Below, one piece after another: positions 1-8,590 of a DNA stretch of 64,000 nucleotides (positions within the stretch are counted from its first letter, which is position 1; each line of letters opens with the position of its first letter). Position numbers and translations under genes: made by a program. Below the pieces are notes generated by a model. That model saw only the letters and a program-made list of their open reading frames with translations. It searched no databases and was not told the origin of the DNA. The stretch lies in assembly GCF_058153355.1 (NCBI RefSeq), contig NZ_CM177019.1; one strand, 5' to 3'.

Positions 1-390
1 CAGAATCTGAAAGTTGCCATCTTCGAGAAAGGCACCACTACCAACCTTATCGGTGGTAACACGGCCATTGCGCTTAATAAAACATATGTGGCCAAACTGT
101 ACTCGGATGAAAACCAGAACGATAAATACGACGCAGGTACGGATATGGACGTTACCGCTAACTATGACTTTGCATGGGTCTTTAACGGTAACAGTAAACA
201 ACTCCGTGCTGCAGGCGGTATTGCTAATGCCAGCTTCGATAACAATGACATTGTTATCCCGCAAACTAACGAAGAAGCAAGAACCAGCCTTAACGGTAGT
301 GACCGTAATGGTAAGAGTGGTCTTGCGATCCCAGCAAACGGCGACGGCGTTCAGGGCTATACGCTGTCAATTATTTACAAACACCACTAA
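1..390 (+). CDS. 3' end of an ORF whose start lies upstream of the window; tentatively an intimin/invasin-family (SinH/SinI-like) accessory surface protein
   Basis: Frame 1 is open from base 1 to the TAA at 388-390 (..NLKVAIFEKGTTTNLIGGNTAIALNK..SIIYKHH). Product guess rests only on position beside the RatA-like gene at the xseA locus. Confidence 0.4.
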   Translation, partial: QNLKVAIFEKGTTTNLIGGNTAIALNKTYVAKLYSDENQNDKYDAGTDMDVTANYDFAWVFNGNSKQLRAAGGIANASFDNNDIVIPQTNEEARTSLNGSDRNGKSGLAIPANGDGVQGYTLSIIYKHH

Positions 391-499
391 TGCGCACGAC
401 TGCATTCCCGTAGGGGAATGCTGTTTTCCGCCTGTTTTGCTTAGCGACGCGTTAAGCAAAACAGGTTGATGTTTTGTTTATCATGTTGGAGTTTTCTAC

Positions 500-3400
500 A
501 TGTCGGTATGTCTGAAACCAGGGAAAATCATTATGCTTCTGGGCATGTTGGCAGCGTTTATGCTGTCTGACTTTGCACGAGCAGGGGTGGAATGGCAGAC
601 ATATCCTGATTCTACAGGCGAGTTTAACGGAACCGTTCCTTTTGCCGACAGCGCCAGCGTACCCGTCTATCAGGGCAGTGTTCAGCTTAATCCTGGCGAA
701 TCTCATGATGTCGGGTTTTCTGCTAAACCGAATGAATTTAGCGTTGACGATGACGCCGCTAACCTGATTGTTGCTAATCCTCAGGACAATGAAGGCGACC
801 AGTTTTCCACACCACCTGCGCTGCGCTGGGAAAATCAAACACCCCCTACCGTCAGCCTGGTGTGGGCCGATGCCGCCACGCCCGATGTACCCCTTAACCC
901 ACAACCCATTGCTAACCGTAGCTTTTGTGCTCAGGGGCTCGCCGGACGCTCGCTGGTGGCCTGGCCGCAGATTGATGCGCAGCAAACCCTCCCACTGCTC
1001 TACCTGTTGACCTCGACCGGCTATCCCTATGCGGGGACGGTGGCGCTGGTGGACCAGAAAGTGACCCTGAACATCGCGCCCGCGCAGGGCGATTTAATCT
1101 CGGTGAGCGCCAGCGGTTATAACGAAACGATCGCGGCGGCAAAAACCACCGTTGGCGACACCATCACGCTCACCGTCACCACTAAAGATTGTCAGGGCAA
1201 CGTCGCGGGTAATATTCCGTTTATTATCAAACGTAAAGATGCTGAAAATCGCCAGGGGGCAGTGAATAATAGTGCGCCAGTGGTACTGGATAGCACCGAG
1301 TTAACGACGACGGCTACCGAATACCATGGCACCTCTGATGCCAACGGCACGGCCACCATCACGGTGAGCCAACCGAACGGCCCTGGCGTCAAAACGCCAC
1401 TGGTGGTCAGCATTTCCGGCATTGCGCAAACCAGCGAAACCGCGGTGATTTTTACGGTGCTCACCAGCCCGGACGCGGCGCAGGCTACGATGTGGGGCCA
1501 TATGGCGGAAACGGTAGAAGCGCACGGTTACACCTTCAGTCGACCAAAGCTGGCGGCAGAAGTCAGCAATGAAAGCGCCACGGTCGTCGATCACAACGAA
1601 ACCTGGTCCACCTTCACCTGGAGCGGCGCAGATAACCACTGCACCGTGCTGCCCGGCATGCGCCACTTCGGCGCGCTGGCGACCGTTATCCCCACATCGG
1701 TGCAGACAGTCCTTGGCTGGCCGATGCAGGGGGATTATTACTGGTCATCGCTGGCGGGCACCACCGGGCAGCACCATGCGGCGGATGTCTCTAACCGTGG
1801 TGAAACGCAAAAGCCGGATAGCACCCCGTTTCTTGTAAGCTGCGTGGATAAACCCGCGCCTGATGTCGAGCCGAAAATCGTCCTTACGCCCGAAAACTAT
1901 GATGATACGGCACAGGCGATGAAATCGCAGGTGGGCGAAGACGCCACGATGCGTCTGACGATCACCGACAATAAAAATAACGATCAACCACTGGCGTATT
2001 ACTACTTCTCGCTGCATCTGGATGACGGCGTTAACCGCAAAAATCAAACCGATTCCGCCTGGGAAGCCCATCCGGTGCAGATTACTGGTGGTTCGAATTT
2101 GCAACAGGTTGATGCTCACACCTATGAAGGCATGACCGATGTCAACGGTCAGGCTTCGCTAACCCTGAGTCAGCCCGACGGCGCAGGCGTGAAAACCCAT
2201 ATCACGGCGAAAATGCGCAGCAATTTTACGGCTACAGATGCCAAAGACGTGATTTTTACTGTGATCACCAGCCCGGACAGCGACAAGGCGCGGATGTGGG
2301 GCCATATGCGCGGCATTGTTGTATCTGGCAGTCTGTTCAAACGCCCAGTGCTGGCGGATGAAACTGAGCATGAACTGGGATCGGTGCGGGAAAATAACGA
2401 AGACTGGGCGCTGTTCGATCAAGACACCAGTATGCAGGCTGAATGCGGCGTCGGCCATACGCCAAGTCAGAGTGGGCTGGAAAGCCTTTTTTCAGCCCAT
2501 CCCGGTAACGCGATTGGCACTGAGTATGGCTGGCCCACCGCACAACAGAACTACCTAAGCGCGGTGGAGCAAGCCACGCATTCATCGGTGAATTTGGCGA
2601 ACGGAAACGTCGACAGCTACCCCGGCTTTAAGCGAAATTACCTCTCCTGTTCGGGCAATGAGATGGTCGCGAAGGTTGAAGTGAGCACCGATCACGATGT
2701 CACCCCTGGCAGCAAAGCGCAGGCCAAAGTGGGAGACACCGTCGTGATGACCGTGCGTACGGTTAACGCGCTCAATAATACCCCCGTTCCCTTTACTGCC
2801 TTCACCATCACTAAAGGCATGGGGTATAACCGAGCGGGGCTGGTGAGCGGGTTTGATGACCCGAGCAGCGGCGCAATCTCGATGAATGGCACGCAATACG
2901 GCACATCGCAGCCGTCGATGGTTTATACGGGTACGACAGATGCACAAGGCGTGGCAACGGTCGAAATAGAGCAACCACAAGGCGTCGGGCTAAGAACGGC
3001 GCTGAGCGTAACGCCGGTAAATTCCTACCTGCCGAATACCGTTAATTACAGCGTTATTTTCACCACCCCAACCAGCCCGGACGTTATTGGCGCGCAGATG
3101 TGGGGCCATATGGATGAAACGATTACTGTTGATTCATTAACCTTTACCCGGCCTAAGCTGGCAGCAGAAATCGCCAGTCCGGATGGCACACTAACGGAAA
3201 AAAACGAAGTCTGGGCGCGCGTTAGCCAGGCCAGTACGGCCATTACCAGTAAAGGCGGTTGCGGAGCCAATATGCTGCCGCGTCGCTCACAGCTCAGTGC
3301 GCTCTATGACGCTAATAACGGCAATGCGGTGCAAACCACACACGGCTGGCCGACGCAGCGTCAGCCCTACTGGAGCAGTTCCCCCGCGGATGTAACGCCG

Positions 3401-6400
3401 CACTATTACACCATTGCCCTGGATAACGGCGCACAGGCTATCGGCGGCGATACGCCGGTTTACGTCAGTTGCCTGACGACGGCGAACAAACCTGCCAGCA
3501 GCATTACGCTGGATGTGGTTGATAACGCACAGTGGGCTGCCGGAAATAACGCGGCGAAGCTGAAAAAAGGCGAAACGCTACGGGTTAAGGTAACGGTAAA
3601 AGATGCGCAGGGTAATCCGCTCACGGATATGCCATTTAAACTGAGTCGCGGAGACGGTTATACCCGCACGGGCGAAAAACATATTGCCGGTAGTGGCGAT
3701 GCGCTGGTGGCACCGGTGGTGATTAACAGTGGGCTGGCGGATGAAACGACGTTGAACGACACCGCGGGATTTTATACTGCCATGACCGGTAGCGACGGCA
3801 GCAAAATCCTCAATATTACCCGCCCGGATACTCACGGCACCAAAACGGCGCTGACGGCGACGTTGTATTCCGATGCAACAAAAAAAGACAGCCTGGATAC
3901 GATCTTTACTGTGGTCACCAGCCCGGATAGTAGCAAAGCGAAAATGTGGGGGCATATGCCGGAAACGGTGACGGCTGCGGACGGTACGGTATTTAAACGC
4001 CCGCTGTTGTTGAAGGAACTGGCCTATCAGACTGGGCGAACATCGACGTCTGAAGACAATGAAAACTGGGCGTTGTTTAACATTAATTATGCGAGTTCTT
4101 CCACGACGTATAGTGGCTGTGGAACCAACTATATTCCGACTCAAGCCGGTCTGACGTCACTGTTTGCTAATAATGCGGGCAACACCATGAAAACCGTGCA
4201 GGGCTGGCCGGTGGCAACACGCTATTTGTCCAACACGTCCGACAACGGCAGCATGGAGCAGCGTAACTACAAGGCGGTAGATCTCAGCAATGGCACGAGT
4301 GCGGCAGTGTCATCAACGGCGCTGCAACTGCTGACCTGCCAGACCACGCCGGTAACCACGGTGGGCCAAATTCTGCTGGAAGCGGCAGATCCGGCGACGC
4401 TGGATACCACCTATAACGTGGTAAAAGCGAAAAAAGGCGAAGAATCCGTGGTGCGCGTCACCACCAAAGATACGCAAGGCAACCTGGTGGGCAATACGGC
4501 ATTTATCCTGACGCGTGCCAACAGCGTGAGTCGGGCTAACGCATCAGCAACCGCGAGCGTGGGCGCGCTGACGGTGACGGATGCTTGGGGAAATACGCGA
4601 AATAATTTCCAGTCGACGAGTGAAACGATTTACGGCGTGACTGGTGCAGACGGGTCAACGACATTTACCCTGAAACAGGATAACAGTACCGGGTTAAGAA
4701 CCGATCTCACGGCAAAACTGGATACGTCCAGCAGCGTCAAGGCGACGCTACCGGTGGTCTTTACTGTCGTGACCAGCCCGGATTCGCCAAAAGCGAATTT
4801 TTGGGGACATATGGCCGAAACGGTGATGGCCTCCGACGGTACAATCTATAAACGACCACTGTTGTTGAAAGAGCTGAGTAACACCAGTGGTCGAAATTCT
4901 ACGGCTGAAAACGGTGAAGATTGGGCAAGATTCACCTGGACTCAGTCGGCTGACACCAGCATGAATGGGTGTGGTACAGATTATATGCCGACGCTGGATG
5001 GACTGAAGTCTTTGTATGACGCCAATAGCGGTAATGTGATGAGTACGGTGCAGGGATGGCCGGTAAAAACGACCTATCTCACCAATACCCCGAGTGATAC
5101 GCAAACAGGGAGCCGTTACTACAATGTGGTGCAACTGAATACTGGTGCAGTCTCACAAATCTCGACGAACACAGTCGTGCTACAAACCTGCCGCACAACG
5201 CCGTTGACGGCTGCTAGCCAGATTACGCTGGAGGCCTCAGACCCCGCGCAATTTGTCAGCATTGACAGTACGCTTAGCGCGATCAAAGTGCAGAAAGGCG
5301 ATAGCGTGTCGATCCGCATTTCGACTAAAGATGCACAGGGGAATTTAGTCGGCAATACGCCGTTTGCCCTGAAACACGCTAACCCGGTCAATCGCCAAAA
5401 TGTGGCGTCAACATCGCAGAAAGTGTCGGTCACGACTGCGTCGGGTACGACGGTGGATACCACTGCATCGACCATTCTGTATGGCGTGACCGGGCCAGAC
5501 GGAACCACCACGATGACACTCCGACAGGATGCGTCTACTGGACTCAAAACCGACTTTTATGCTCTGTTGAACGATACCGGCGTGTCGTCGAACACCTTGC
5601 CAGTGATCTTCACCGTCGTCACCAGCCCGGATACACCGCTGGCGGCCAACTGGGGGCATATGGCAGAAACCTTTACCAGCAGCAAGGGAGTCACCTTCAA
5701 ACGGCCTTTCCTCAAAGCTGAACTTTCTGGTGGTACGGCGGTAACGACCAATAATGAAGTCTGGTCGCGCCTGACAGCAACGGAGAAAACGGATGCCAGC
5801 AAGGCTGGGTGTGATGAGAGTTATCAACCGCTGATGACTGACATGCAGGGGTTGTATGCGGATTACCCTAACAACCAGTTGGGCACGGTGCTCGGCTTGC
5901 CGACTTCCGCCGGGTATATGTGGGCCTACGACATGATGACGGTTTCTGGCAGCAGCTGGAGCAACCAGGCATATTCGCTCGTTAATGGTCAGACAGTTCA
6001 GGCATCGTCCAGTTATACGGCGGTAGTGATGTGCCTGGTGGAACCGCATACCGTTCCGGCGATGATAGAGATCACTTCAACAGCACAGGATGCGGCAAAA
6101 ACGGTCAGCAATGGTGGTCGACCGAGCGCCGTAGCGAAGAAAGGTGAGACGATTCCGCTGACGGTGACCGTACGTGATAGCACCGGGAATCCGGTACCCT
6201 ACGCCGACTTTACCCTCACGCGTGGAACGACGCTGGATCGCTCGAAAGCAACCGTTAACTCGAGTGCGGACGATCTTACCGTGAAGTCATTGATACCCGC
6301 GAACAGTGACGCTGGGCTGACGGCAAATGGGGCAAAAGTGCTCAGAACAACGGGCAGTGATGGCACAGCCACCTTTGAAGTGAGCCAGAATGCCACGACA

Positions 6401-8590
6401 GGACTGGCGACCCCCATAACCGTCACGCTGGCGCGTGATGTAACCAAAACCGCCACGCTGGATGTTATCTACACGGTGATAACCAGCCCGGACTCACCGA
6501 GCGCGAAATTCTGGGGGCACATGCCGGACACCTTTACCAGTTCGGCAGGCGTCACCTTCAGACGACCGCTGCTGAAAGCCGAAGCGACTTCAGGGTCATC
6601 GATTAGCACTAACGGCAATGGTGAAGTGTGGTCGTATATGAGCAACGTTCAAAATTTAACATCGACAGATTGTCCGCTGGAGAATCAACCGCGCAGTAAT
6701 GAATTGTTGGATTTGTATAATGATCATCCCAACGGCGCGATAATGACTGACCTGGGGCTGCCGATATATGCAGGCAAGTGGTGGGCTTATGATATGGTCA
6801 TGCCGGATTTATATACGTGGCAGTATCAGACGGTCAGCCTGAGCGCAGGAGATATCGCGAAGAGCTCGGCAAGCAACGCGCTGATGCTTTGCCTGACGAA
6901 GCCGCATCCGGCAGGCGTCAGCGTAATGTTGACGTCATCCGCAATGGATAACGCCAGAACCCTCAGTAATGGCGGGCGACCCAGCGCGTCAGTGAAAAAA
7001 GGTAACCCACTGCCAATTGTGGTGACGGTCAAAGATCGTGATGGCAACCCGCTGGCGGGAGAGGCCGTGACGCTCAGGCGTGGTTCAGCGATGAGTCGTT
7101 CAGGAGCAGGAGTGGGCACGCCGGCAAATGCAATGACGTTGACAGAATTGACACCTGTGTCGGCGGAGTTTTCTCTGGCCGCACACGATACGCAATGGCA
7201 AGGTTTCACCGGCAGTGATGGTACGGCCACTTTCAATGTTGAACAGCCTGAGACCATCGGCCTGGCCATTTCGTTCACCGCTATACTGGCGCGAGATGTA
7301 GCAACTACCAGCGTCCTTGATGCGATCTTTACCGTCGTTACCAGCCCGGATTCCGCAATGGCGACCTACTGGGGCCATATGCCGGATACGGTAACGGCGG
7401 AAAACGGCGTGGTCTTTGAACGGCCTAAATTGTTGAAAGAGCTGCCGTCGAGCGCCGGAGTCAGTCAGGTGACGGATAACAATGAAGTGTGGCCGTTGTT
7501 TAAGGCAACGCAAAGGGAAGATAGCAGCCTCAGTCCTTGTGAAGCGGCACGTCGGCCATTGAGCGATGATTTATTATCGCTCTACGCGCGCTATCCGGGG
7601 AACACGCTGACGACTCAAATCGGCTGGTCTACGAAGTATGCATGGTGGGCACTGGATAACAAGCAGGGGAATGCCCTGGTTGTCAGTCTGAATAATGGTT
7701 TTGAGTCGTCGACGGCGAGTACGGGGTATCAGGGATGTCTGGTCAATCCCCGCGCGACCGTCTCCAGCGTCACGCTGACATCGACGGCGCTGGATGCCAC
7801 TACGCAGGCAGCGAAGGTAAAAAAAGGTGAAGCCGTGCCCCTCGTTGTTACCGTAAAAGACAACGCCGGGAAGCCGGTACCGAATGTCGCTTTCACCTTA
7901 AAACGTGGTGATGCCATGCCACGTAACAGCGGGGCGACGTTGTACGGTGATGTTGCGGCGATGGATGATATGACGGTACAACCTGCCAGCGGGACGGTGG
8001 TAACGCTGGCTGACAGTGGGAATACGGTCGACGGAGTGACTGGGGCGGACGGTACGGCAAGTTTTACCGTTCGTCAGGATAATACGCCAGGATATAAAAC
8101 GCCGTTGACGGTGACGCTGACGGATAACGCCACAATAACGGCGATGCTGGATACGATTTTCACCGTCGTTACCAGTCCAAATGTACCCACAGCCCATTTT
8201 TGGGGACATATGTCGGATACCACTGTGGTAAACGGTAAAACGCTACATCGTCCACAGTTGGAATCAGAACTGCCATCGGCAGCCATCATGGTGGCAACAC
8301 CGAACGTCAATAATGAGACGTGGGCACTGGCGCATACTGTTGACTCGCAAAAATGGGATATTTCGCAGCAGTGCGGCCTCCTTGATTTTGCACCGAATTA
8401 TGCGGATTTAGAGGCTCTGCACACTAACTTCAGTACTCTCGGATGGCCGTCAATGCCTAATACCCCCTATCTATCTAAAGACAGAGAGCGGTCAGGTAAG
8501 TATTACTGCGGTATGATTGAAGAGACAGGTTCTCAATCTTGCAGTATTGAGCCTACCAGCACGCCGGGATTTGCTACTTGTGTCAGGTAA
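500..8590 (+). CDS. Giant secreted repeat protein, 2696 aa, RatA/RatB-like Ig-domain repeat protein
   Basis: Single uninterrupted ORF. GGAG at 486-489 precedes the ATG at 500. N-terminus has a signal-peptide-like stretch ([17 protein letters not shown]). Nine repeats each carry the motif [13 protein letters not shown]. Confidence 0.8.
1100..8400 (+). repeat. Nine tandem, divergent ~800-860-bp coding repeats inside the giant ORF
   Basis: The motif accagcccggac (TSPD) recurs near 1463, 2267, 3071, 3917, 4772, 5621, 6482, 7340 and 8171. Each is preceded by a KKGE..V.VT.KD..GN block and followed by a NE.W..CG..GWP..YW block. Confidence 0.8.

What the first reader, a model, noticed from the sequence alone, without database searches (positions are those of the whole stretch)
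1..390. Second accessory ORF upstream of the giant gene, truncated by the window edge
The open frame from base 1 ends 110 bp before the giant ORF on the same strand, which suggests co-transcription. Its C-terminal 129 residues are not similar to the repeat units, so it is a distinct protein, possibly the SinH/SinI-like partner found in this island in other enterobacteria.
Basis: inference. Interest (0 to 1): 0.3.

Follow-up and report, generated by a model that had tools for sequence, protein, structure and literature searches.

The report
Tail end of the sinI gene
The open frame at the window's left edge is the last 129 codons of sinI, a known small exported partner protein encoded between the sinH adhesin gene and the giant RatA-like adhesin gene in an E. 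coli/Salmonella genomic island; it is an ordinary, already annotated gene.

Summary
Frame 1 is open from base 1 to TAA at 388-390, and the giant ORF starts at 500, after a 109-nt spacer. The 129 residues are the C-terminal third of SinI (330 aa full length; NCBIfam NF040711, E 1.3e-39). E. coli chromosomes up to 98.8% identical show der – sinH – sinI – giant RatA-like adhesin – xseA – guaBA.

The fragment is not related to the giant protein's repeats. It is homologous to the C-terminal tip domain of SinH (31% identity, E 3e-10). It models confidently (pLDDT 92.5) as one Ig-like beta-sandwich with no close solved relative. The sinH–sinI–rat order is kept in 8 of 8 loci examined, from five genera.

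Co-transcription with the giant gene is not established. The spacer holds a terminator-like hairpin and a palindrome conserved in sequence in six of seven loci, and it has no sigma-70-like promoter.

The published, untested hypothesis is that SinI is a ZirS-like substrate or partner of SinH.

One lead may be new. SinI and the Rat-like proteins share a motif directly after the signal peptide (hhalign E 1.1e-6), which could be a common recognition signal.

Novelty: already known. Interest: low.

The parts
1..390 (+). 3' end of sinI: codons 202-330 of a 330-codon gene plus the TAA stop. The 5' 603 nt lie outside the window.
   Evidence: Translation. 98.8% nt identity to an annotated SinI gene in NZ_CM148325.1, L001 11398-12390. 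NF040711 E 1.3e-39, model positions 187-299 of 299. Third-codon-position bias.
1..387 (+). Single Ig-like beta-sandwich domain (seven strands, one helix), homologous to the C-terminal tip domain of SinH.
100..135 (+). Acidic loop YSDENQNDKYDA (family consensus LWSDKNGNGxYDxGE; D36 invariant). It resembles the W.D.N.NG..D.GE loop of GEVED, SdrD_B and DUF7282 beta-sandwich domains. Calcium binding is inferred, not shown.
   Evidence: Alignment A3. Partial multi-stretch profile hits to giant proteins that carry GEVED, SdrD_B or DUF7282. Weak DUF7282 hit on the fragment, E 0.059.
343..357 (+). Invariant DGVQG motif that starts the last beta-strand. It is shared by every SinI and SinH C-terminus aligned.
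   Evidence: Alignment A3: invariant columns D115 G116 V117 Q118 G119. A related [DA]QG[FY].L.V ending occurs in a distant IAT/partner pair.
402..429 (+). Hairpin 1 (GCATTCCC-GTAG-GGGAATGC) followed by TGTTTTCC. A terminator-like element right after the sinI stop codon.
   Evidence: Terminator scan. Fold z = -6.05 for 385-505. In the aligned loci from other genera a hairpin with a different sequence plus a T-run sits at the same place. 4 of 8 pairs change on both sides.
430..466 (+). Hairpin 2: a sequence-conserved palindrome (core TTTGCTTAGC-N3-5-GYTAAGCAAA) followed by GTTGA, upstream of the giant gene. Role unknown; it could be an RNA element or an operator.
   Evidence: 10 of 16 pairs change on both sides, and the inner pairs are nearly invariant. 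No Rfam family. Unique to this locus in E. coli genomes.
488..491 (+). GGAG, a likely ribosome-binding site 8 nt before the giant gene's ATG.
   Evidence: Read directly from the sequence.
500..8590 (+). Giant RatA-like adhesin gene (2696 aa; BIg21/InvE_AD repeats). It is the downstream neighbour of sinI.
   Evidence: ORF list. NF011844 RatA-like, 5386 bits. Nine BIg21 and nine InvE_AD stretches.
593..646 (+). N-terminal motif of the giant protein (W32-A49, [18 protein letters not shown]) just after its signal peptide. It is shared with the mature N-terminus of SinI.
   Evidence: Alignments A1 and A2. hhalign probability 91%, E 1.1e-6. SinI-N HMM hits 10 of 10 Rat-like N-termini, with best background E 0.77 among 2705 ORF segments.

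Best explanation
**Shown.** Window 1-390 is the 3' end of sinI (also called sivI; the middle gene of the E. coli 'ila' locus and the Salmonella CS54 island). It encodes the C-terminal Ig-like domain of SinI. This is the only part of SinI that is homologous to the tip domain of the upstream inverse autotransporter SinH. Full-length SinI, seen in near-identical genomes, is about 330 aa. It has an N-terminal Sec-type signal peptide ending A-x-A, a conserved short motif at the mature N-terminus, a first beta-sandwich domain, a GGGS/acidic linker and this C-terminal domain. It has no beta-barrel. The gene order sinH-sinI-rat is conserved across genera.

**Inferred.** SinI is exported to the periplasm by Sec. 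It is then handled by SinH as a ZirS-like partner of an inverse-autotransporter 'two-partner' system, and ends up secreted or displayed on the cell surface. There its SinH-like tip domain would either bind the same kind of ligand as SinH or dock onto SinH by Ig-Ig contact. The N-terminal motif that SinI shares with the Rat-like giant adhesins is the best candidate for the element that the common partner recognises.

**Transcription (inferred).** sinH-sinI form one transcription unit that mostly ends at hairpin 1. The giant gene is then expressed by read-through or from an unrecognised promoter, with the conserved palindrome as a possible control element.

The identity of the gene is near certain (above 0.95). 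The confidence given here is for the whole statement, including the inferred mechanism.
For: **Identity.** Megablast matches SinI-annotated genes in 1727 of 5426 complete E. coli genomes, best 98.8%. The annotated context is der-sinH-sinI-adhesin-xseA-guaBA. NF040711 gives E 1.3e-39 for the fragment and 377 bits against a 165-bit cut-off for the intact orthologue. Codon-position bias supports the frame.

**Domain.**
- The fragment is homologous to the SinH C-terminus.
- In the Salmonella pair the similarity is confined to this domain: 35% identity, E 1e-17.
- AF2 models it as a single beta-sandwich, pLDDT 92.5; the full-length model has two domains, pLDDT 80.6.
- No IAT_beta, BIg21 or InvE_AD domain is present.

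**Linkage.** sinH (IAT_beta), sinI and a Rat-like giant gene are adjacent in 8 of 8 loci. These include two Leminorella genomes where the flanking genes differ. A distant SinI-like gene sits directly after an 898-aa IAT_beta gene.

**Shared N-terminal motif.**

**Terminator.**. By contrast the sinH-sinI spacer is only 55 nt and has no terminator-like hairpin.

**Literature.**
- SinI lacks a barrel and resembles SinH's Ig-like domains; a ZirT:ZirS-like translocator:substrate model has been proposed (Heinz 2016, PMC4943183; Goh 2019, PMC6714894).
- ZirS is secreted in a ZirT- and Sec-dependent way (Gal-Mor 2008, PMC2270342).
- sinH is co-transcribed with sinI (review PMC12525524 citing Shea 2022).
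Against: - No experiment known to me shows that SinI is secreted, surface-exposed or dependent on SinH.
- IatB, the E. coli SinH orthologue, mediates biofilm formation without the downstream gene (PMC6714894).
- Homology of SinI to ZirS or ZirU themselves was not tested here.
- A distant SinI-like gene (P0144) stands alone, with no inverse autotransporter within 10 kb. The pairing is therefore not obligatory.
- The N-terminal motif match is short (27 columns, hhalign probability 91%). It could reflect a shared fold element or a signal-peptidase context rather than a recognition signal.
- The 5' two thirds of the gene are outside the window, so intactness in this particular genome is assumed from relatives.
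Confidence: 0.55

Rival explanations
1. SinI is a periplasmic Ig-fold chaperone or adaptor. It stays in the periplasm and assists folding or export of SinH and/or the giant Rat-like adhesin, and is not itself exported.
For: It has a Sec signal and Ig-like beta-sandwich domains. Heinz 2016 notes that IgSF folds are common among periplasmic chaperones. It is tightly linked to both genes.
Confidence: 0.2
2. SinI is a free soluble paralogue of the SinH tip domain. It acts as a decoy or modulator by competing for the SinH ligand, and its release does not depend on SinH.
For: The ligand-facing tip domain is shared. From memory, not checked here: Shea 2022 reported that loss of the ila locus increased adherence to bladder cells, which would fit an inhibitory role. 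An orphan SinI-like gene exists with no nearby inverse autotransporter.
Against: No route across the outer membrane other than SinH is evident in the locus. Strict synteny with sinH holds in 8 of 8 enterobacterial loci.
Confidence: 0.15
3. In this particular genome the frame is a remnant. The 5' part of sinI, outside the window, is disrupted, so the 129 codons are not expressed as a functional protein.
For: The window starts inside the gene. Truncated SinI forms of 196-220 aa, each standing for 55-82 member sequences, are present in the protein collection.
Against: Only 1 nonsynonymous against 8 synonymous codon differences separate it from an intact 330-aa orthologue. All listed close genomes annotate an intact gene. 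Some of the short database forms may simply be contig-end truncations.
Confidence: 0.05

Closest known systems
SinI / SivI of the Salmonella CS54 island and the E. coli 'ila' locus (NCBIfam NF040711, SinI family autotransporter-associated protein; EcSMS35_2660 downstream of iatB)
   Same: Same family, gene order, size and domain layout. About 43-45% amino-acid identity to the Salmonella proteins and 95-97% to its closest E. coli clusters.
   Different: The window carries a distinct E. coli allele class. It is 90-99% identical at nucleotide level in 749 complete genomes, but only about 72% identical to the CFT073/NU14-type allele found in 939. Relative to the 23 more distant family members aligned, including Salmonella and Citrobacter, it has an extra 6-13 residues (around RNGKSGLAIPAN) before the DGVQG motif.
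C-terminal tip domain of the inverse autotransporter SinH (IatB)
   Same: Homologous domain: 31-54% identity (E 3e-10 for the window fragment vs its SinH, 1e-17 for the Salmonella pair). It has the same invariant residues and the same extreme C-terminal position.
   Different: SinI has no beta-barrel and no membrane anchor, and its N-terminal half is unrelated to SinH. Within-genome identity is not higher than between-genome identity, so the duplication is old rather than maintained by gene conversion.
ZirS/ZirU, exoproteins secreted through the inverse autotransporter ZirT in Salmonella
   Same: A small Sec-dependent protein without a barrel, encoded right after an inverse autotransporter gene and resembling that transporter's Ig-like C-terminal part (PMC2270342; PMC4943183).
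   Different: This is an analogy only. Sequence homology was not tested here, and secretion of SinI has not been shown. The zir locus has no Rat-like giant gene.
TpsA/TpsB two-partner secretion (FHA/FhaC)
   Same: A separate cargo carries a conserved N-proximal element right after the signal peptide, and a dedicated outer-membrane beta-barrel partner is encoded next to it. The SinI/Rat N-terminal motif would play the part of the TPS domain.
   Different: The barrel is an inverse-autotransporter barrel (PF11924), not an Omp85/POTRA protein. The motif is about 20 residues, not a 250-residue beta-helical TPS domain. No function has been shown for it.

Membership tests
SinI family autotransporter-associated protein (NCBIfam NF040711) | Scores above the curated cut-off (165 bits) on the family model | tested here: met
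   The intact orthologue at 98.8% nt identity scores 377.3 bits. The truncated window fragment alone scores 136.5 bits (E 1.3e-39) because it covers only model positions 187-299 of 299.
SinI family autotransporter-associated protein (NCBIfam NF040711) | Encoded immediately downstream of the inverse autotransporter gene sinH | tested here: met
   Cannot be seen in the window itself, because the upstream part is missing. It holds in 8 of 8 related loci, including the 98.8%-identical genome.
SinI family autotransporter-associated protein (NCBIfam NF040711) | No beta-barrel; C-terminal domain similar to the C-terminus of SinH | tested here: met
   No IAT_beta in the fragment or in the full-length orthologue. 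SinH similarity at E 3e-10 and 3.7e-12.
Inverse autotransporter (intimin/invasin/SinH) | IAT beta-barrel domain (PF11924) | tested here: not met
   PF11924 is found in the upstream SinH (E 1.9e-105) but not in SinI.
Rat-like repeat adhesins (RatA/RatB; BIg21 + InvE_AD repeats) | BIg21 (PF05688) and adhesion-domain (PF05689) repeats | tested here: not met
   Neither domain is in the fragment or in full-length SinI. BLASTP gives no significant hit. The domain profile scores 0.8 bits against the giant ORF.
ZirS-like secreted substrates of inverse-autotransporter translocators (functional class) | Small Sec-dependent protein without a barrel, encoded after the IAT gene, sharing an Ig-like domain with it | tested here: met
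   The signal peptide was judged by inspection of the orthologue's N-terminus (MKPDMKRGLTKVALALMLAGYCAVPAAMA|ED), not by a predictor.
ZirS-like secreted substrates of inverse-autotransporter translocators (functional class) | Secretion across the outer membrane that depends on the cognate inverse autotransporter | not testable with these tools
   Needs fractionation of tagged SinI with and without sinH. No report was found in the library searched.
ZirS-like secreted substrates of inverse-autotransporter translocators (functional class) | Sequence homology to ZirS/ZirU | not tested
Sequence and profile searches of PDB chains found nothing.
Rho-independent (intrinsic) terminator, for hairpin 1 at 402-429 | G+C-rich stem-loop directly followed by a U-rich tract, at the 3' end of a gene | tested here: met
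   8-bp stem with 5 G-C pairs, a 4-nt loop and the tail UGUUUUCC, 11 nt after the stop codon. The equivalent hairpin plus T-run occurs in all 7 aligned loci, from five genera, with different stem sequences.
Rho-independent (intrinsic) terminator, for hairpin 1 at 402-429 | Terminates transcription in vivo | not testable with these tools
   Needs Term-seq, Northern blots or reporter fusions.

The most novel reading that the evidence does not exclude
SinI and the giant Rat-like adhesins share a short conserved motif at the very start of the mature protein (W-x5-6-[ST]-T-G-x-[IF]-x-G-T-x-P-[WF]). This motif is the secretion or recognition signal by which the inverse autotransporter SinH selects its cargoes. 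The sinH-sinI-rat module would then be a two-partner secretion system built on an inverse-autotransporter barrel, with a defined and mutable targeting signal. Heinz et al. 2016 proposed the translocator:substrate idea but described the Rat N-terminus as highly divergent, and the papers read here do not mention the motif.
Probability: 0.25. Interest if true: 0.55.

Novelty: already known. Interest (0 to 1): 0.15.

Why it matters
As given, the finding matters little. It is the truncated end of an annotated gene in a described island (CS54 in Salmonella, 'ila' in uropathogenic E. coli). What it adds is correct annotation of the window edge.

The locus itself has some medical interest. SinH is a vaccine candidate and a fitness factor in urinary tract infection. 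How the barrel-less SinI and the 2696-aa RatA-like protein reach the cell surface is still unanswered.

Two by-products of this check make that question more testable:
- A short N-terminal motif common to SinI and Rat-like proteins gives a concrete target for mutagenesis.
- A conserved terminator-plus-palindrome between sinI and the giant gene argues that the two are not simply co-expressed.

Tried and rejected
- **Similarity to the giant protein's repeats:** none by BLASTP, Pfam or domain profile.
- **Beta-barrel in SinI:** none.
- **Known RNA family in the spacer:** only a chance miRNA hit, 20 bits against a gathering score of 95.
- **Hairpin 2 as a dispersed repeat (REP-like):** rejected. 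It occurs only at this locus; the two 'places' per genome are the two strands of a palindrome.
- **Sigma-70 promoter for the giant gene in 1-900:** none found.
- **Concerted evolution of the SinH and SinI C-domains within a genome:** not supported. Identities are 34-54% regardless of genome, with only Leminorella richardii SinH somewhat closer.
- **SinI as a lipoprotein:** the invariant Cys22 sits in 'AGYC', which has Tyr at -1 and is not a canonical lipobox. Judged by inspection only.
- **Primary paper on transcription of the locus (Shea 2022, PMC8853676):** not held in the library. Further literature searches gave no operon data for sinI-ratA.
- **N-terminal motif in very distant SinI-like proteins:** the enterobacterial HMM finds it in four of the eleven proteins that show the motif (E 2.3e-6 to 0.57). 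The other seven show it only by eye or with a loose pattern, so generality beyond Enterobacterales is not established.

Full report
**1. Observation**

Reading frame 1 of the + strand is open from base 1 and stops at TAA 388-390. It gives 129 residues, QNLKVAIFEK...GVQGYTLSIIYKHH. The next gene on the same strand is the 2696-aa ORF at 500..8590, so the spacer is 391-499, which is 109 nt.

An open run of 129 codons is already unlikely by chance, and the frame carries the marks of a real gene:
- It matches a curated family model at E 1.3e-39.
- Against a 98.8%-identical genome, 8 of the 9 differing codons are synonymous.
- Against the CFT073, Salmonella and Citrobacter alleles, nucleotide differences are concentrated at third codon positions: 23/22/69, 44/45/75 and 43/39/77.

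- BLASTP finds nothing significant.
- Pfam finds BIg21 and InvE_AD only in the giant ORF.
- A profile of the domain scores 0.8 bits against the giant ORF.

**2. Identity**

Window 1-3000 matches the chromosome of 1727 of 5426 complete E. coli genomes, the best at 98.8%. The features under the match are annotated 'SinI family autotransporter-associated protein' and 'adhesion domain-containing protein'.

In the best genome the order is der – zinc-ribbon gene – sinH (724 aa) – sinI (330 aa) – giant adhesin – xseA – guaB – guaA. The window begins at codon 202 of sinI.

On NCBIfam NF040711 (partner_SinI) the intact orthologue scores 377 bits against a cut-off of 165. The fragment covers model positions 187-299 of 299. 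The giant ORF is NF011844, 'RatA-like protein', at 5386 bits.

The rest of the window is ordinary E. coli core chromosome: xseA, guaBA, ppk/ppx, the hyf operon, acrD and narQ.

The locus is described in the literature as the CS54 island of Salmonella (sinH/sivH, sinI/sivI, ratA, ratB, shdA) and as the 'ila' cluster of uropathogenic and avian E. coli (sinH, sinI, ratA) (PMC4943183; PMC12928451; PMC12525524).

**3. What the fragment is**

The part of SinI that lies in the window is the only part that SinI shares with SinH:
- The fragment aligns to SinH residues 622-721 at 31% identity, E 3e-10.
- It matches positions 623-729 of the 730-position SinH model.
- In the Salmonella pair the similarity is likewise confined to the last ~120 residues: 35% identity, E 1e-17.

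An alignment of 22 SinI and 7 SinH C-termini has the invariant residues L16, Y29, D36, Y55, W59, S65, P87, N90, A93 and D115-G-V-Q-G119, in fragment numbering.

The full-length model (pLDDT 80.6) has four parts: a disordered signal-peptide region, a first beta-sandwich, a GGGS/acidic linker and this C-terminal domain.

An exhaustive profile search of 1.84 billion representative proteins finds only 70 hits at E ≤ 1e-3. The domain sits at the extreme C-terminus of ~300-400-aa SinI-like proteins and of ~730-750-aa SinH-like proteins.

Partial multi-stretch hits in unrelated giant proteins come from the loop 'LWSDKNGNGxYDxGE' (YSDENQNDKYDA in the window). This resembles the acidic loop of GEVED, SdrD_B and DUF7282 domains. 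Calcium binding is my inference from that resemblance.

Within-genome SinH/SinI identity is not higher than between-genome identity (34-54%), so the duplication is old.

**4. Family and linkage**

A word-indexed search of 5.8 billion proteins returns 151 SinI relatives. Those with names come from Escherichia, Shigella, Salmonella, Citrobacter, Pseudocitrobacter, Superficieibacter and Leminorella.

In 8 of 8 loci inspected, the order is an IAT_beta protein of 724-737 aa, then SinI, then one or two BIg21/InvE_AD giants. These loci include two E. coli alleles, CFT073, E. albertii, Salmonella, Citrobacter and two Leminorella species. In Leminorella the module lies in a different chromosomal neighbourhood.

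Further out, the picture is mixed:
- A distant SinI-like protein (P0169) follows an 898-aa IAT_beta gene with no Rat gene after it. Both proteins end in a related [DA]QG[FY].L.V strand.
- Another distant relative (P0144) is an orphan, with no inverse autotransporter within 10 kb.

**5. The spacer and the co-transcription claim**

Window 385-505 folds far better than shuffled controls (-47.6 kcal/mol, z = -6.05). It forms two hairpins.

Hairpin 1 (402-421, then UGUUUUCC) starts 11 nt after the stop codon. In Salmonella, Citrobacter, E. albertii and both Leminorella loci there is a hairpin of different sequence plus a T-run at the same place.

Hairpin 2 (430-466) is a palindrome whose core, TTTGCTTAGC…GYTAAGCAAA, is conserved in sequence in six of the seven loci. 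It is followed by GTTGA. Its outer pairs covary.

On a 7-locus alignment:
- 91% of cells are paired.
- 14 of 24 pairs change on both sides.
- No shuffle out of 500 reaches the observed values.
- Slid controls drop to 36-55% paired.

With seven related sequences this is supportive rather than conclusive.

Other checks on the spacer:
- No Rfam family matches.
- The palindrome is unique to this locus in E. coli.
- No sigma-70-like promoter is found in 1-900.
- The sinH-sinI spacer is only 55 nt, with no terminator-like hairpin.
- A review citing Shea et al. 2022 states that sinH is co-transcribed with sinI. The primary paper was not available.

My reading is as follows. sinH-sinI form one unit that ends, at least partly, at hairpin 1. 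The giant gene depends on read-through or on an unrecognised promoter. Same strand and 109 nt apart do not by themselves argue for simple co-transcription.

**6. How it most likely works**

Shown here:
- The gene, the domain, its paralogy to the SinH tip, the absence of a barrel, and the conserved three-gene module.

By inspection of the orthologue:
- A Sec-type signal peptide ending AMA|ED.

Inferred, following the hypothesis of Heinz et al. 2016 and Goh et al. 2019 and the ZirT/ZirS precedent:
- After Sec export, SinI is taken over by SinH and ends up outside the cell or on its surface.

One new piece of circumstantial support came out of this check. The mature N-terminus of SinI (consensus GNLKSGQWQivSesTGTIQGTVPW) and that of every Rat-like protein examined carry the same motif right after the signal peptide. 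Examples are Salmonella RatA ALLKGGTWQELNSVTGAVNGTAPL and the window's giant [23 protein letters not shown].
- Profile-profile comparison gives probability 91%, E 1.1e-6, over 27 columns.
- An HMM of the SinI motif finds 10 of 10 Rat-like N-termini at the same position (E 8e-7 to 0.78, nine of them ≤ 0.03).
- The best of about 2690 other ORF segments from the same DNA scores E 0.77.
- SinH itself lacks the motif.

A shared N-proximal element on two otherwise unrelated exported proteins encoded behind the same barrel protein is what a common recognition signal would look like, by analogy with the TPS domain. That reading is an inference and could be wrong.

Rivals are a periplasmic Ig-fold chaperone or adaptor, a SinH-independent soluble decoy, and a remnant gene in this particular genome. 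They are listed with their tests in the rival explanations.

**7. Comparison and novelty**

The gene is a member of the SinI family; all the defining features that could be tested are met. It is not an inverse autotransporter and not a Rat-type adhesin; those defining domains were tested and are absent. It works like ZirS only by analogy.

The allele in the window belongs to a class 90-99% identical in 749 complete E. coli genomes. It is only about 72% identical to the CFT073/NU14-type allele found in 939.

Nothing about the finding as written is new, so I score it low.

The most novel reading not excluded is that the N-terminal motif is the cargo signal of an inverse-autotransporter-based two-partner system. 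I give that about 0.25.

Noticed in passing
window 593-646 (giant ORF residues 32-49); L001 11497-11547 and the equivalent SinI N-termini in L002-L009: SinI and all Rat-like giant adhesins examined share a conserved motif directly after the signal peptide (W-x5-6-[ST]TG-x-[IF]-x-GT-x-P). hhalign gives E 1.1e-6. The motif HMM hits 10 of 10 Rat-like N-termini and nothing else in about 2700 ORF segments. It may be a common recognition signal. The papers I read do not mention it, and Heinz 2016 calls the Rat N-terminus highly divergent.
   Followed up: yes
window 430-466: A sequence-conserved palindrome (core TTTGCTTAGC-N3-5-GYTAAGCAAA, then GTTGA) lies between the sinI terminator and the giant gene. 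It is found in E. coli, E. albertii, Salmonella, Citrobacter and Leminorella richardii. L. grimontii has a different hairpin at that place. It is unique to this locus in E. coli and matches no Rfam family. It could be an operator or an mRNA leader element for the rat gene.
   Followed up: partly
L001 11398-11484 (SinI signal peptide; outside the window): The signal peptide of SinI is unusually conserved. A19, G20 and C22 are invariant and Y21 nearly so ('LALxxAGYC') across genera whose mature proteins are only 40-45% identical. 'AGY/AGF' recurs in very distant SinI-like proteins. It is not a canonical lipobox, and the reason for the conservation is unknown.
   Followed up: no
L007 10967-11256: In one E. 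coli allele the sinI-rat spacer is 290 nt instead of about 110. REP-like palindromic sequences are inserted next to the hairpin-1-like sequence, which occurs on both sides of the insert. Hairpin 2 stays next to the rat gene.
   Followed up: no
L012 7181-10999; L011 10001-11074; L010: Distant SinI-like proteins occur in three arrangements. One follows an 898-aa inverse autotransporter with no Rat gene and has a strong terminator after it (L012). One is an orphan gene between slyX and a ribosomal-protein cluster in a 2.6-Mb genome (L011). One sits in a tandem of partner-like genes (L010).
   Followed up: partly
protein P0136: A database 'protein' that looks like SinH translated from C-to-T-converted DNA: Ala becomes Val, Thr becomes Ile/Met, Ser becomes Phe, Pro becomes Leu and Arg becomes Cys throughout. 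It is probably an assembly of bisulfite-type or otherwise deaminated reads, an artefact in the collection.
   Followed up: no
proteins P0014, P0018, P0034, P0053: Several clusters of shortened SinI (196-220 aa), each standing for 55-82 member sequences. They may reflect recurrent truncation of sinI in E. coli lineages, or contig-end artefacts.
   Followed up: no
window 13300-38000 versus 38000-62900: The best full-length match among 5426 E. coli genomes is 99.0% for the first stretch but only 96.6% for the second (hyfB…acrD…narQ region). This suggests a mosaic or recombinant segment, or an under-sampled lineage.
   Followed up: no
window 14-469 (+, frame 2) and 452-985 (-): Two long ORFs (151 aa and 177 aa, both with TTG starts) overlap sinI, the spacer and the start of the giant gene. 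The codon-position pattern supports frame 1 only, so they are most likely spurious.
   Followed up: partly
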